Virus record (IMG/VR): IMGVR_UViG_3300045988_102975
Coordinates: 1-36,004 of that record
DNA: 36,004 bases
Source of the DNA: a virus
Direction: 5' to 3' (one strand)
This document shows, in pieces, positions 1 through 36,004 of the stretch. The position numbers and the translations under genes were made by a program. Positions within the stretch are counted from its first letter, which is position 1; each line of letters begins with the position of its first letter. The notes below the pieces were generated by a model. It ran no database searches and was not told the origin of the DNA. It worked only from the letters and a program-made list of their open reading frames with translations.

Positions 1-88
1 AAATAGTTTAACAACGCAGAAATTTCTGCGTGAGATACTTGCTTGACATTCACTTAATTACAATATTAATAGTATAATGTGCATACTA
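1..88. repeat. Left copy of the 88-bp direct terminal repeat (circular assembly overlap)
   Basis: Bases 1-88 read identically to 35917-36004. Confidence 0.9.
14..31. repeat. 18-bp perfect palindrome ACGCAGAAATTTCTGCGT (candidate attP core or protein-binding dyad)
   Basis: Self-complementary by inspection. Lies in the non-coding region upstream of int, with a second copy at 35930-35947 inside the terminal repeat. Confidence 0.5.
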
Positions 89-3063: not shown

Positions 3064-3444
3064 TTAATTATTCTTCACTAGCGCGCGGAGAAAATCTATC
3101 TGCGCCTCCTTGTCCTTCAGCTGTTCCCTCAGCATCTCGTTCTCCTTCTCCAGCACCGCCATCTGCGTAGCTGCGTCACCATCTTTCGGGCGATTGCCCG
3201 CCCTGTTCTGGTCTATCTGGACGTTCACATCGCCGGCGTTGTTATTGCCGGCGTAAATGCCGCCGTTAATCAACATCGAGGTATCCCACCCATGAGGATT
3301 GTTGAGTATCTTGGTTAGATTTTCTTTTGAAGGGTTGCCTGCCCCCTTAACCATTCTCGATATAAACGCCTCTGTCACACCGAGATACTTCGCTAAATCA
3401 ACCTGTTTTAGTTTGTTTCTATATAAGAATTCCTTGATATCCAT
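3064..3444 (-). CDS. XRE-family HTH repressor (CI-like) with a C-terminal coiled coil and no S24 peptidase domain
   Basis: 126 aa. N-terminus KLKQVDLAKYLGVTEAFISRMVKG is a classic HTH and the C-terminus is a leucine-zipper-like helix. Divergent from the early operon. Confidence 0.8.
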   Translation of the reverse strand: MDIKEFLYRNKLKQVDLAKYLGVTEAFISRMVKGAGNPSKENLTKILNNPHGWDTSMLINGGIYAGNNNAGDVNVQIDQNRAGNRPKDGDAATQMAVLEKENEMLREQLKDKEAQIDFLRALVKNN

Positions 3445-3457: not shown

Positions 3458-3507
3458 TAATTTTCTTAATTTTTTCAGTTAATTTACTTGCATAATAAAT
3501 TAAGTTT

Positions 3508-3520
3508 CTTTACCTTTGTG
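3508..3520 (+). promoter_or_regulatory. Operator-like site B, CTTTACCTTTGTG, overlapping the -7 box TACCTTTG (3511-3518) of a candidate rightward early promoter
   Basis: Near copy of site A. TACCTTTG fits TAnnTTTG. Confidence 0.4.
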
Positions 3521-3535
3521 TTTAGAAACCAACCC

Positions 3536-3551
3536 ACAAAGGGCAAAGGTA
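3536..3551 (-). promoter_or_regulatory. Operator-like site C (reverse complement CTTTGCCCTTTGT, 3536-3548), overlapping an inverted TACCTTTG box (3544-3551)
   Basis: Perfect 13-bp inverted repeat of site A. The second TAnnTTTG match is on the minus strand. Confidence 0.4.
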
Positions 3552-3577
3552 ACAAAAAAGTAAATAAAAAACACAAT

Positions 3578-3778
3578 ATGACACACGATGAATTAGACTC
3601 AACGATTAAGAAACTGATGACTGAATTCAACGCTAATCGGACAAAGATTCAGGAAGCGCGCAAGGTCGAGGATTGGGATATAGTTGACGCGCTCAACGAG
3701 CGGCAGCGCGAAATAAACGACGAACTGAACGCCATCTATAACATAACAATACAGGAGGATGTGAACAATGAGAACTAG
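3578..3778 (+). CDS. Hypothetical helical protein (first rightward early gene)
   Basis: ATG at 3578 inside the 3488-3778 ORF. The upstream part of that ORF overlaps the control region and starts at TTG. Confidence 0.5.
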   Translation: MTHDELDSTIKKLMTEFNANRTKIQEARKVEDWDIVDALNERQREINDELNAIYNITIQEDVNNEN

Positions 3779-3974
3779 ACGCGAATGGGATATTGACAGG
3801 ATAGCACGCCACGCCATCGGCTGGGTGATGCTGGCGGCCGGAGCCGGCTACCTGTTCTTCGGAAACTACCACTGCGGCATGGCCAGATTCCTTGCATGTG
3901 CCGTATGTGTCGGGATATGGACTGCGGCGACGATAGACGACAATGACTCAAAACGAACCCGCGAGGGCAAGTGA
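3768..3974 (+). CDS. Small membrane protein, unknown function
   Basis: 68 aa with two hydrophobic segments. 11-nt overlap with the previous gene. Confidence 0.5.
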   Translation: MRTRREWDIDRIARHAIGWVMLAAGAGYLFFGNYHCGMARFLACAVCVGIWTAATIDDNDSKRTREGK

Positions 3975-4129
3975 GGGTTACTCTAACATAACTAGCAACC
4001 GCCTGCACTCATATAGCAGGCACGTGCAGGCGGACAACGGCGGTAAACCGCGGATTGTGGCGCACCGCGGAGCGATATACTCGACAAAGCATTAAAAGCC
4101 TCGCAGTCGGGGAAAGCCTGGGATTGCAG

Positions 4130-4154
4130 CATGGTTCGAATCCATGCCCGCCGG
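4130..4154 (+). other. tRNA T-arm-like module 1 (CATGG-TTCGAAT-CCATG) plus a 3' acceptor-like CCCGCCG
   Basis: Canonical T-loop sequence. The only complementary 5' strand (CGGCGGT, 4038-4044) is 118 nt away, and I could not find a 5-7-5 anticodon arm by eye. Confidence 0.3.
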
Positions 4155-4261
4155 CAAAGACGCAGGGATGCGTTGATTAAACCAAACACATAAAGACTCC
4201 GGCGATCCGCAGAACGGACGCCGCCCTGACTGGCACTGGATAGTCCTTTACAGGGTTGGCA

Positions 4262-4348
4262 GGGAGACTTCCACGGGTGGCGTGGCGCTCGACGGCTGAA
4301 AGCGAAAACAGACCGGCAGCGTGGGAGGTTCGAGACCTCCGTCTTCCT
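4262..4348 (+). other. tRNA-like module 2 (87 nt): acceptor GGGAGAC/GTCTTCC with a G3.U70 pair, T-arm GGAGG-TTCGAGA-CCTCC
   Basis: 7-bp acceptor, a D-arm-like CCAC...GTGG and a perfect T-arm. The anticodon arm is non-canonical (4-bp stem, 11-nt loop). Confidence 0.3.
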
Positions 4349-4377
4349 CTGATAATTGAAACAAAACGAGAAAGAAA

Positions 4378-4572
4378 ATGGAAGGGAAAATCAGCGTATT
4401 AGGAACAATCAAGACTTTGGGCGTCGGTGAAATCTTCGTCTTTAAGCCTGAACAAATCAAGTACACGTCGCTGCTGTGCGCGTGCTCGAAACTGCGCATG
4501 GACAACAAGCGCGTGCGCTACAAGGTGAAGACATTGCCTAGCGGCAAATATCAAGTAACACGTATATCATGA
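4378..4572 (+). CDS. Hypothetical protein
   Basis: 64-aa ORF. Its stop overlaps the next start (ATGA at 4569). Confidence 0.5.
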   Translation: MEGKISVLGTIKTLGVGEIFVFKPEQIKYTSLLCACSKLRMDNKRVRYKVKTLPSGKYQVTRIS

Positions 4573-35826: not shown

Positions 35827-35916
35827 CCGAAAGTATCGGACAAATCACATATCTTTGCACCCGATTTGAGACGGCTGGGAAGCATGGATTTTTTCCGAAT
35901 TTTTACAAATGTTTAC

Positions 35917-36004
35917 AAATAGTTTAACAACGCAGAAATTTCTGCGTGAGATACTTGCTTGACATTCACTTAATTACAATATTAATAGTATAATGTGCAT
36001 ACTA
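35917..36004. repeat. Right copy of the 88-bp direct terminal repeat
   Basis: Identical to 1-88. Confidence 0.9.

What the first reader, a model, noticed from the sequence alone, without database searches (positions are those of the whole stretch)
3975..4377. ORF-free, densely structured 400-nt early segment with two tRNA-like T-arm/acceptor modules
This is the largest gap in an otherwise tightly packed genome. The only ORFs in it are Cys/Arg-rich minus-strand artefacts.

Hairpins visible by eye:
- A 10-bp perfect stem at 3999-4008/4024-4033.
- A CCGCGG/CCGCGG stem.
- A GGGA (GNRA)-capped hairpin at 4159-4174.
- A 9-bp bulged hairpin at 4200-4223.

Two perfect T-arms are also present: CATGG-TTCGAAT-CCATG (4130-4146) and GGAGG-TTCGAGA-CCTCC (4324-4340).
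- The second closes a 7-bp acceptor-like helix, GGGAGAC/GTCTTCC, that contains a G3.U70 pair. That pair is the alanine identity element shared by tRNA-Ala and tmRNA.
- Neither module yields a canonical 5-7-5 anticodon arm in my hands (lengths 118 and 87 nt).

Possible explanations include unusual or decayed tRNAs, tRNA-like mimics, a tmRNA-like or other large structured phage RNA, or fragments serving as attachment sites for other elements.
Basis: partly seen in the sequence, partly recalled or inferred. Interest (0 to 1): 0.65.

Follow-up and report, generated by a model that had tools for sequence, protein, structure and literature searches.

The report
Phage tRNA-shaped RNAs in early operon
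The 400-base gene-free stretch of this gut Bacteroidales phage encodes two conserved RNAs that fold like tRNAs but cannot decode, each preceded by a stable hairpin, and they most likely serve as cutting signals in the phage's first transcript.

Summary
Every hairpin, both T-arms and the 7-bp acceptor helix sit at the stated coordinates. Two perfect T-arms are far more than chance gives (0.14 expected per genome).

Module 2 (4262-4348, + strand) is a genuine, selected cloverleaf. In 15 distinct sequences from related phages and a Bacteroides prophage, 99.2% of pair cells are paired. Six pairs show compensatory changes, and G.U pairs fix the strand.

It is not a tRNA. The anticodon arm is a 36-nt irregular hairpin with a 10-nt loop. 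ARAGORN and Rfam both fail to call it. G3.U70 is not conserved, so the alanine/tmRNA reading falls.

Module 1 (4038-4153) is a looser tRNA-like fold with a 6+6 bp acceptor/T stack and a variable core.

Each module follows a covarying hairpin by 4-6 nt. Module 2 always lies 24-29 nt before the next start codon. I found no promoter motif or terminator inside the gap.

Best reading (about 0.4): these are 't-element'/mascRNA-like processing signals cut by host RNase P and 3' tRNA enzymes. That would split the immediate-early mRNA and leave hairpin-protected 3' ends. Rivals are a trans-acting tRNA mimic or decoy and a cis translation enhancer.

No transcript data could be obtained. The family is absent from Rfam.

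The parts
3511..3518 (+). Bacteroides-type -7 promoter box (TACCTTTG) of the rightward early operon. It is the only exact + strand match between 3511 and 6878, so the structured segment is probably co-transcribed from here.
   Evidence: pattern TANNTTTG; equivalent TAACTTTG in relative L028. Promoter function is inferred.
3768..3974 (+). Upstream gene: a 68-aa small membrane protein. It is conserved directly 5' of the RNA array in all relatives.
3999..4033 (+). Hairpin A: 10-bp perfect stem and 15-nt loop, ending 4 nt before module 1. The loop holds a second copy of the 3' strand core GCAGGC.
   Evidence: z = -4.63. In relatives the homologous hairpin is 100% paired, with 3 compensatory pairs plus G.U pairs.
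4038..4153 (+). tRNA-like module 1. Acceptor 4038-4043/4148-4153 (6 bp). D-like stem 4049-4053/4065-4069 with an 11-nt loop holding GG. Variable central domain 4070-4128. T arm 4129-4134/4142-4147 (6 bp) with loop UUCGAAU.
   Evidence: Compensatory changes occur in the D-like stem (C-G/A-U) and the T stem (U-A/G-C in L175). There is a 13-14-nt indel in the core. Module 1 in two close relatives (L011, L013) aligns end to end to the module 2 model at only 12-13 bits, E 2.8-5.1; the window's own copy, which differs from L011's only just past the acceptor stem, was not listed at E 10 or less.
4159..4174 (+). GGGA-capped hairpin (5-6 bp)
   Evidence: z = -3.97. The core CGCAGGGAUGCG is also present in group-4 relatives L168-L171. 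It is absent in L020.
4200..4223 (+). Bulged 9-bp hairpin
   Evidence: z = -3.48; absent in L020
4224..4255 (+). Hairpin B (outer stem CCCUG/CAGGG), ending 6 nt before module 2
   Evidence: The outer stem is CCAUG/CAUGG in L021 and CCUCG/CGAGG in L169-L171, which are compensatory changes. Thermodynamic support is weak.
4262..4348 (+). tRNA-like module 2. Acceptor 4262-4268/4341-4347 (7 bp). U8 U9. D arm 4271-4274/4282-4285 with loop GGGUGGC. Long irregular arm 4286-4321 (3 bp, internal loop, 6 bp with a bulge, 10-nt loop AAAGCGAAAA). T arm 4324-4328/4336-4340 with loop UUCGAGA. Discriminator U4348.
   Evidence: The cloverleaf is the single-sequence MFE and centroid and the RNAalifold consensus. 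99.2% of pair cells are paired, against 40-49% for slid controls, and 6 pairs show double changes. Model R1 scores 95-112 bits in every relative and about 18 bits on ordinary tRNAs.
4349..4377 (+). A-rich, unstructured leader between module 2 and the next start codon. It is 24-29 nt long in all relatives.
4378..4572 (+). Downstream gene: a 64-aa protein, always the first ORF after module 2
   Evidence: AF2 model has pLDDT 91.7; there is no PDB fold match below E 0.1.

Best explanation
The gap encodes a modular array of structured RNA on the + strand, inside the immediate-early rightward transcript of a temperate Bacteroidales siphovirus. The order is hairpin A, tRNA-like module 1, three hairpins, tRNA-like module 2, then a short A-rich leader.

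Shown:
- The modules keep the parts of a tRNA that processing enzymes measure. These are a 12-bp acceptor/T-stem stack (7+5 in module 2, 6+6 in module 1), a canonical T-loop, and a D-loop with GG that can form the elbow.
- They have no anticodon arm that could decode.

Inferred mechanism:
- Host RNase P cuts at the 5' end of each module.
- Host 3' tRNA-processing enzymes (RNase Z or exonucleases, then possibly the CCA-adding enzyme) cut at the 3' end.
- This splits the polycistronic early mRNA.
- The upstream piece, carrying the small membrane-protein gene, ends in a stable hairpin plus 4-6 nt, which would block 3' exonucleases.
- The downstream piece starts with a defined 24-29-nt A-rich leader for the 64-aa gene.
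- About 87-nt and about 117-nt tRNA-shaped RNAs are released. They may have a further role as mimics.

In short, the array would work like plant-mitochondrial t-elements or the MALAT1/mascRNA module.
For: Structure and selection:
- Cloverleaf with 6 compensatory pairs and 99.2% pairing in 15 distinct sequences.
- Hairpin A has 3 compensatory pairs.
- Module 1 has compensatory changes in the D-like and T stems.
- G.U pairs occur only on the + strand reading.

Embedding in the early transcript:
- A Bacteroides -7 box lies at 3511-3518, with none on the + strand before 6879.
- There is no terminator-like site in the gap.
- The position between the same two genes is fixed in all 30+ relatives.

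Features that fit processing:
- Every module is preceded at 4-6 nt by a stable covarying hairpin.
- Module 2 is always 24-29 nt from the ATG.
- The base before the acceptor is U and the first base is G in most lineages.
- Group-2 relatives encode ACCA after the acceptor.
- The acceptor base, D arm and T arm are the most conserved parts. The long arm tolerates a 17-nt duplication and loop changes, and module 1's core tolerates a 13-nt indel.

Precedent:
- t-elements shape mRNA ends in Arabidopsis mitochondria (PMC1920247).
- mascRNA and menRNA are released by RNase P (PMC11693755).
- RNase P reads tRNA shape as a ruler (PMC4919913).
Against: - No transcript, end-mapping or cleavage data exist.
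- The window's own module 2 has A, not U, before the acceptor, and no CCA.
- Module 1 starts with C1-G72 and has 4-5 nt instead of 2 between the acceptor and the D stem, so it may be a poor RNase P substrate.
- A pure cutting signal would not need the well-kept long arm of module 2 or an invariant T stem.
- All relatives belong to one phage lineage. The compensatory events number about 7-8, not dozens.
- Promoter absence rests on one exact 8-mer motif.
Confidence: 0.4

Rival explanations
1. Trans-acting tRNA mimic or decoy. The released tRNA-shaped RNAs bind a host factor that recognises the tRNA elbow or acceptor. Candidates are a tRNA-targeting defence nuclease, a modification or processing enzyme, EF-Tu or the CCA-adding enzyme. 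Binding would block or hijack that factor early in infection. This is compatible with processing being the release step.
For: - Expression would be immediate-early, the usual place for counter-defence (gene order).
- The elbow-forming loops are strongly conserved and the T stem is invariant.
- The long arm of module 2 keeps its shape by covariation.
- ACCA is encoded in one lineage.
- Phage tRNAs are known to counter tRNA-cleaving defence (bioRxiv 10.1101/2023.03.15.532788).
- mascRNA has trans roles (bioRxiv 10.64898/2026.01.19.700226).
Against: - There is no anticodon loop for anticodon nucleases to recognise.
- The long arm tolerates a 17-nt duplication.
- No RNA-related enzyme is encoded in the window.
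- No partner is identified.
- It does not explain the hairpin placed before each module.
Confidence: 0.2
2. Cis-acting translation enhancer or insulator. The uncut tRNA-like fold just upstream of the leader raises translation of the 64-aa gene, or shields its A-rich leader from pairing with upstream RNA. Precedents are the yjdF riboswitch and tRNAs grafted into mRNA leaders.
For: - The spacing from module 2 to the start codon is fixed at 24-29 nt in all lineages, even where the downstream protein is only 28-30% identical.
- cis-tRNA leaders raised translation 2- to 6.3-fold in vitro, depending on the elbow GG (PMC9142559).
Against: - Module 1 is about 225 nt from any start codon, so it cannot act this way.
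- It does not explain the hairpins before each module.
- The precedent is from SD-dependent E. coli extracts, whereas Bacteroides initiation is largely SD-independent (general knowledge).
- Rfam's yjdF model gives no match.
Confidence: 0.15
3. Relics of a phage tRNA gene cluster (pseudo-tRNAs) with no present function, or DNA-level sites such as an origin, operators, or attachment sites for satellites.
For: - Phages often carry tRNA clusters in such gaps.
- Presence and absence of modules is mosaic.
- The GCCTGC/GCAGGC repeats of hairpin A are spaced about one helical turn apart.
Against: - Compensatory double changes and G.U pairs keep the RNA helices on one strand only.
- Module 2 is present in every relative found.
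- The prophage copy is collinear across the gap, so the phage's own attP is elsewhere.
Confidence: 0.07
4. One large integrated structured RNA of about 350-400 nt, of the kind often found in phages (tmRNA-like, or GOLLD/ROOL-like).
For: Structure is dense over the whole 400 nt. The two T-arm modules resemble two-piece designs.
Against: - Module 1 and the three middle hairpins are absent in many relatives that keep module 2.
- No long-range pairs appear in the consensus folds.
- There is no Rfam hit, even at E of 10 or less.
- ARAGORN finds no tmRNA at normal thresholds.
Confidence: 0.05

Closest known systems
Canonical tRNA (Rfam RF00005, clan CL00001), including phage-encoded tRNAs
   Same: Module 2 has a 7-bp acceptor stem, U8, a 4-bp D stem with a GG-bearing loop, a 5-bp T stem, the T-loop UUCGAGA and a discriminator base. 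In one lineage it also has an encoded CCA. Its length of 87 nt is in the class II range.
   Different: There is no 5-bp/7-nt anticodon arm and no anticodon. Instead there is a 36-nt irregular arm with a 10-nt loop and only 2-3 nt of variable region. It is not called by ARAGORN or by Rfam at their thresholds. It cannot decode.
t-elements of plant mitochondria and the MALAT1/MEN-beta mascRNA/menRNA modules (tRNA-like processing signals cut by RNase P and RNase Z)
   Same: It is a tRNA-like fold with a non-decoding anticodon region, embedded inside a longer transcript. A stabilising structure lies immediately upstream of the presumed RNase P site. Small tRNA-shaped products are expected.
   Different: The setting is bacterial and phage. 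The upstream stabiliser is a plain hairpin, not a triple helix. The D arm is intact. Cleavage has not been shown here.
tmRNA tRNA-like domain
   Same: It has an acceptor stem plus T arm, G3.U70 in the window's copy, and an anticodon arm replaced by a longer irregular helix.
   Different: G3.U70 is not conserved. A D stem is present. The element is 87 nt long, with no pseudoknots and no tag reading frame. The 5' and 3' acceptor strands are only 80 nt apart.
Bacterial and phage Y RNA-like YrlA (tRNA-mimicking module; PMC4201824)
   Same: It is a non-coding RNA of bacteria and phages with T-arm and D-arm mimicry.
   Different: From general knowledge, YrlA has its ends on the opposite side, in a Ro60-binding stem, with a closed acceptor-like arm, and lies next to rsr. 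Here the acceptor ends are open. No Rfam match was found, and no Ro60-type gene was seen among the genes scanned.
yjdF riboswitch and cis-tRNA leaders (PMC9142559)
   Same: It is a tRNA-shaped element in an mRNA leader a few tens of nt before a start codon, with the elbow GG conserved.
   Different: There is no sequence match to yjdF. No ligand pocket or switch to an RBS-pairing state is evident. The host uses little SD pairing.
3'-terminal tRNA-like structures of plant RNA viruses (TLS-Val/His/Tyr)
   Same: Both are viral RNAs that imitate the tRNA top half without decoding.
   Different: Those sit at the 3' end of an RNA genome, usually use pseudoknotted acceptor arms, and are aminoacylated. 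This one is internal to a DNA-phage transcript and has a normal acceptor helix.

Membership tests
tRNA | 7-bp acceptor stem stacked on a 5-bp T stem with a 7-nt T-loop (UUCRANY) | tested here: met
   Module 2 has a 100% paired acceptor and T stems in 15 sequences, with 3 compensatory acceptor pairs. Module 1 has 6+6 bp instead of 7+5.
tRNA | D arm whose loop carries the GG that forms the elbow | tested here: met
   The 4-bp stem shows three pair types at 10:25 (C-G, G-C, U-A). The loop is GGGUGGC or GGGAGGC. The tertiary contact itself was not tested.
tRNA | 5-bp anticodon stem with a 7-nt loop carrying an anticodon | tested here: not met
   The consensus arm is 3 bp, an internal loop, 6 bp with a bulge, and a 10-nt loop. 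ARAGORN gives only forced models at 80% thresholds, with mispaired D or anticodon stems or invented 19-nt 'introns'.
tRNA | Detection by standard tRNA finders or covariance models at their thresholds | tested here: not met
   ARAGORN finds 0 genes in the window. Rfam gives no gathering-score hit. The best sub-threshold match is tRNA-Sec at 16.6 bits against 47.
tmRNA | G3.U70 alanine identity pair in the acceptor stem | tested here: not met
   G.U in 10 and G-C in 5 of 15 distinct sequences.
tmRNA | Tag-peptide reading frame and pseudoknot domain between the acceptor strands; detection by ARAGORN or Rfam | tested here: not met
   No tmRNA at default thresholds. There is only a spurious permuted call at 60-70% thresholds. 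No Rfam tmRNA hit. The acceptor strands are 80 nt apart.
tRNA-like processing signal (t-element / mascRNA type) | tRNA-like fold lying inside a longer transcript rather than being its own gene | tested here: inconclusive
   There is no Bacteroides -7 motif on the + strand between 3519 and 6878, and no terminator-like site in the gap. The element lies between two co-oriented early genes in all relatives. No transcript data exist.
tRNA-like processing signal (t-element / mascRNA type) | Cleavage by RNase P at the 5' end and by RNase Z or an equivalent at the 3' end, defining the ends of the flanking RNAs | not testable with these tools
This needs end mapping or in vitro cleavage.
YrlA / bacterial Y RNA | Match to the Rfam model; Ro60 (Rsr) gene nearby; RNA ends in a Ro-binding stem opposite the tRNA-like module | tested here: not met
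   No Rfam hit at E of 10 or less. The early genes scanned are integrase, HTH proteins, ERF, Gp157, SSB, a methylase and a nuclease, with no Ro60-type protein. The ends pair in the acceptor stem.
yjdF-type tRNA-like riboswitch | Match to the Rfam model; T-loop region able to pair with the RBS in an off state | tested here: inconclusive
   No Rfam hit. Alternative pairing with the leader was not examined in detail.

The most novel reading that the evidence does not exclude
The released non-decoding tRNA look-alikes are a new class of phage counter-defence or host-takeover RNA. They would be made in the first minutes of infection or induction. They would occupy a host protein that recognises the tRNA elbow and acceptor end, for example a tRNA-directed immune nuclease or a tRNA maturation enzyme. 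The host's own RNase P would serve as the release mechanism.
Probability: 0.2. Interest if true: 0.8.

Novelty: new variant of a known kind. Interest (0 to 1): 0.6.

Why it matters
tRNA-shaped RNAs that do not decode are known from eukaryotic nuclei, plant mitochondria, RNA viruses and a few bacterial RNAs. I know of no described family embedded in the immediate-early operon of a DNA phage.

This one is conserved, with covariation, across a lineage of temperate phages of human-gut Bacteroidales. It is invisible to tRNA finders and to Rfam. In some relatives it is even swallowed by over-extended ORF calls.

If the modules are RNase P-dependent cutting signals, they would show phages using the tRNA-maturation machinery to punctuate mRNAs, as mitochondria do. 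If they are mimics, they would be a new kind of early host-manipulating RNA.

Either way the element is small, has clear predicted ends and a known lysogen background, so it is directly testable. It is also a natural 'tRNA punctuation' part for Bacteroides genetic tools.

Tried and rejected
- ARAGORN at default thresholds and Rfam at gathering scores gave nothing. Rfam at E of 10 or less gave only a chance-level tRNA-Sec match.
- ARAGORN with introns and lowered thresholds gave forced, mispaired models, which I rejected.
- blastn against GenBank phages found no match.
- The sigma-70 promoter scan is irrelevant for Bacteroidota and found none.
- The genome contigs and metagenome pattern scans were mostly swamped. 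Only L035 and nine metagenome loci were real. L061 was a chance match inside a gene.
- IMG/VR protein-anchored and module-1 pattern scans returned only the same 17 contigs.
- Public RNA-seq was not available for this window.
- A search for targets complementary to the 10-nt loop of module 2 found nothing above chance: 10 matches against 5.9 expected.
- Structure prediction of the downstream 64-aa protein was confident (pLDDT 91.7), but no PDB fold match fell below E 0.1, so it gave no functional link.
- Pfam and PHROGs on the flanking small proteins gave nothing.
- The supplement of the 2023 phage structured-RNA catalogue is not held, so I could not check whether this element is among its 10,006 candidates.
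- The attP idea was rejected by prophage collinearity.
- The coding idea was rejected by frame-breaking indels.
- The central domain of module 1 could not be resolved between two competing hairpins.

Full report
SETTING

The window is a circularly assembled phage genome of about 35.9 kb. Bases 1-88 repeat at 35917-36004.

The gene content is as follows.
- A Bacteroidota-type tyrosine integrase at 226-1452, with Arm-DNA-bind_5 and SAM_5 domains.
- A leftward HTH repressor at 3064-3444.
- A rightward early operon with ERF, Gp157, DUF6291, SSB, a methylase and VRR-NUC.
- Then terminase, portal and capsid genes.

A 96%-identical prophage lies in a Bacteroides sp. CAG:709 scaffold (L035). Several relatives come from human-gut metagenomes.

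Two Bacteroides-type -7 boxes face each other at 3511-3518 (+) and 3544-3551 (-). The gap at 3975-4377 therefore lies about 450 nt into the rightward immediate-early transcript. It sits between a 68-aa membrane-protein gene and a 64-aa gene.

CHECK OF THE OBSERVATION

Every hairpin, both T-arms and the acceptor helix are at the coordinates given.

The two perfect 5-bp/TTCGAnn hairpins are the only ones in the genome. Both are on the + strand and lie 190 nt apart. Shuffles give 0.14 on average.

The gap is the largest ORF-free stretch of the + strand part of the genome.

The single hairpins are much more stable than shuffles (z = -3.5 to -4.6). The whole segment is only marginally so (z = -1.9).

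Relatives differ in the gap by 1-, 2-, 13-, 17- and 91-nt indels. This excludes a conserved reading frame.

MODULE 2 (4262-4348)

Folded alone, its minimum-energy and centroid structure is a cloverleaf.

I collected relatives in four ways.
- An exact pattern search.
- The downstream 91-aa protein.
- D-arm/T-arm patterns in viral, genome and metagenome collections.
- Homologues of the upstream membrane protein, followed by their contigs.

A covariance model built from ten sequences (R1) scores 95-112 bits in every relative examined. It scores about 18 bits on ordinary tRNAs and 12-13 bits on the module 1 copies of relatives L011 and L013.

Fifteen distinct sequences fall into four groups. On the cloverleaf:
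- 99.2% of pair cells are standard pairs, against 40-49% when the partners are slid.
- Six pairs change on both sides: three in the acceptor, one in the D stem (with three pair types), and two in the long arm.
- None of 500 shuffles reaches the covariation score.

G.U pairs at 1:72, 3:70 and in the long arm would be C.A mismatches on the other strand. The RNA is therefore read from the + strand, the direction of the operon.

The fold comprises a 7-bp acceptor, UU, a 4-bp D stem with loop GGGUGGC, a 5-bp T stem with loop UUCGAGA, and a discriminator.

The place of the anticodon arm is taken by a 36-nt irregular hairpin. It has 3 bp, an internal loop, 6 bp with a bulge, and a 10-nt A-rich loop. 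It tolerates loop substitutions and, in L022, a 17-nt duplication.

It is therefore not a tRNA. ARAGORN and Rfam do not call it, and relaxed ARAGORN models are forced.

G3.U70 is G-C in a third of the sequences, so the alanine/tmRNA idea is not supported.

MODULE 1 (4038-4153)

It has a 6-bp acceptor directly stacked on a 6-bp T stem (12 bp, as in tRNA) and a canonical T-loop UUCGAAU. It also has a 5-bp D-like stem with an 11-13-nt loop holding GG.

Compensatory changes occur in the D-like stem (C-G to A-U) and the T stem (U-A to G-C in L175).

Its central domain carries a 13-14-nt indel and two mutually exclusive hairpins, which I could not resolve.

Module 1 is present in the window's group and in L175/L176, but absent from most other relatives.

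THE HAIRPINS

Each module is preceded by a hairpin.
- Hairpin A (3999-4033) ends 4 nt before module 1.
- In relatives that lack module 1, the homologous hairpin ends 5 nt before module 2.
- Hairpin B (4224-4255) ends 6 nt before module 2 in the window and in group 4.

Hairpin A is 100% paired in seven distinct sequences, with three compensatory pairs and G.U pairs.

Hairpin B changes from CCCUG/CAGGG to CCAUG/CAUGG or CCUCG/CGAGG.

The array is mosaic.
- L020 lacks the three middle hairpins.
- L175 has hairpin A, module 1 and module 2 in a row.
- Groups 2 and 3 have a further 5' element.
- Group 4 has the GGGA hairpin and hairpin B but not hairpin A.

Module 2 is the constant part. It always lies 24-29 nt before the next start codon, even where that protein is only 28-30% identical.

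HOW IT MOST LIKELY WORKS

What is conserved is what tRNA-processing enzymes read: the 12-bp acceptor/T stack, the T-loop and the D-loop GG (the elbow). What is free to vary is the decoding end.

Five features point the same way.
- A stable hairpin lies a few bases upstream of each acceptor 5' end.
- An unstructured A-rich leader of fixed length follows module 2.
- The junction is U(-1)/G(+1) in most lineages.
- One lineage encodes ACCA.
- The gap has no promoter motif and no terminator of its own.

The simplest reading is that the modules are processing signals. RNase P and the 3' tRNA enzymes would cut them out of the early mRNA. The upstream message would then end in a protective hairpin, and the downstream message would begin with a defined leader.

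This is how t-elements act in plant mitochondria (PMC1920247) and how mascRNA and menRNA are made (PMC11693755). RNase P recognises shape rather than sequence (PMC4919913).

The fold and its conservation are shown. Co-transcription is inferred from motifs and gene order. Cleavage is inference only.

RIVALS

A trans-acting mimic or decoy fits three things: the early timing, the invariant T stem, and the maintained long arm of module 2. It could coexist with processing. However, there is no anticodon loop to imitate, no partner is known, and it does not explain the hairpins.

A cis translation enhancer fits the fixed distance to the start codon. tRNAs placed in mRNA leaders raised translation 2- to 6.3-fold in vitro (PMC9142559). 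It cannot apply to module 1, and it rests on an SD-dependent system.

Relic tRNAs and DNA-level sites are contradicted by strand-specific covariation and by the collinear prophage.

A single large RNA is contradicted by the modular presence and absence of parts, and by the lack of any Rfam or tmRNA signal.

COMPARISON AND NOVELTY

The element works like a tRNA-like processing module. Membership in that class cannot be tested without cleavage data.

It fails defining tests for tRNA (anticodon arm, detection), tmRNA (G3.U70, tag, pseudoknots) and YrlA (model, Ro60 gene, end topology).

No Rfam family matches. A 2023 catalogue lists thousands of unnamed candidate structured RNAs in phages, including 'tRNA-like' ones (PMC10690425). 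I could not check whether this one is among them.

I rate it a new variant of a known kind.

LIMITS

- All relatives belong to one phage lineage. The distinct sequences have a mean column identity of 89%, so the number of independent compensatory events is about 7-8.
- No expression data could be obtained.
- The promoter argument rests on one 8-mer consensus.
- The downstream 64-aa protein gave a confident model but no informative fold match.

Noticed in passing
window 1-88 and 35917-36004; about 200-222 and 35905-35930: The window's end repeats its start, so this is a circularly assembled complete genome of about 35.9 kb. Repeats of TTTACAAATAGTTTA(A)CAAC flank the junction next to the integrase gene and look like integrase arm sites (attP region).
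   Followed up: partly
window 3511-3518 (+) and 3544-3551 (-): Two Bacteroides-type -7 boxes (TACCTTTG) face each other between the repressor gene and the early operon. This looks like a divergent immunity-region promoter pair. The listed ORF 3488-3778 probably starts at the ATG at 3578.
   Followed up: partly
L022 2952-3055 (= L009), aligned to window about 4298-4320: There is a 17-nt tandem duplication (CAGCGAAAACAGACCGG) inside the long arm of module 2 in one otherwise 94%-identical relative. The model score drops only from 112 to 99.5 bits.
   Followed up: partly
L020/L003, aligned to window 4168-4259: A clean 91-nt deletion removes the three hairpins between the two tRNA-like modules, leaving them 10 nt apart.
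   Followed up: partly
L017 3789-3793; L167, L172, L174, L302, L303, L305 at equivalent places: Group-2 relatives encode ACCA directly after the acceptor stem of module 2. The window has UCUG, and groups 3 and 4 have UCUA.
   Followed up: partly
window 4324-4328 / 4336-4340: The T stem of module 2 (GGAGG/CCUCC, identical to a Shine-Dalgarno/anti-Shine-Dalgarno duplex) never varies in 15 distinct sequences, although every other helix covaries.
   Followed up: no
window 4002-4007, 4017-4022, 4027-4032; L017 about 3663-3692: The loop of hairpin A always holds a second copy of the 3' strand core (GCAGGC/CAGGCA). The 5' strand can therefore pair with either copy, giving two alternative hairpins. 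This is conserved in all groups and unexplained.
   Followed up: partly
L028 3803-3845; L017 3614-3655; L167, L172, L174, L175, L177, L305: Groups 2 and 3 carry a further conserved element, GTGCAAGCCTGTGAAGGTGAGCACCCTGCAC, right after the membrane-protein gene. The window lacks it.
   Followed up: no
L028 3925-4206; proteins P0063-P0076 (89-90 aa): Gene callers extend the small downstream ORF upstream through module 2 in group-3 phages. Public annotation therefore hides the RNA under a spurious N-terminal extension.
   Followed up: partly
window 4378-4572: The 64-aa protein after module 2 gives a confident AlphaFold model (pLDDT 91.7; helix-strand-helix-strand-strand). It has no PDB fold match below E 0.1 and no Pfam or PHROG family.
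   Followed up: yes
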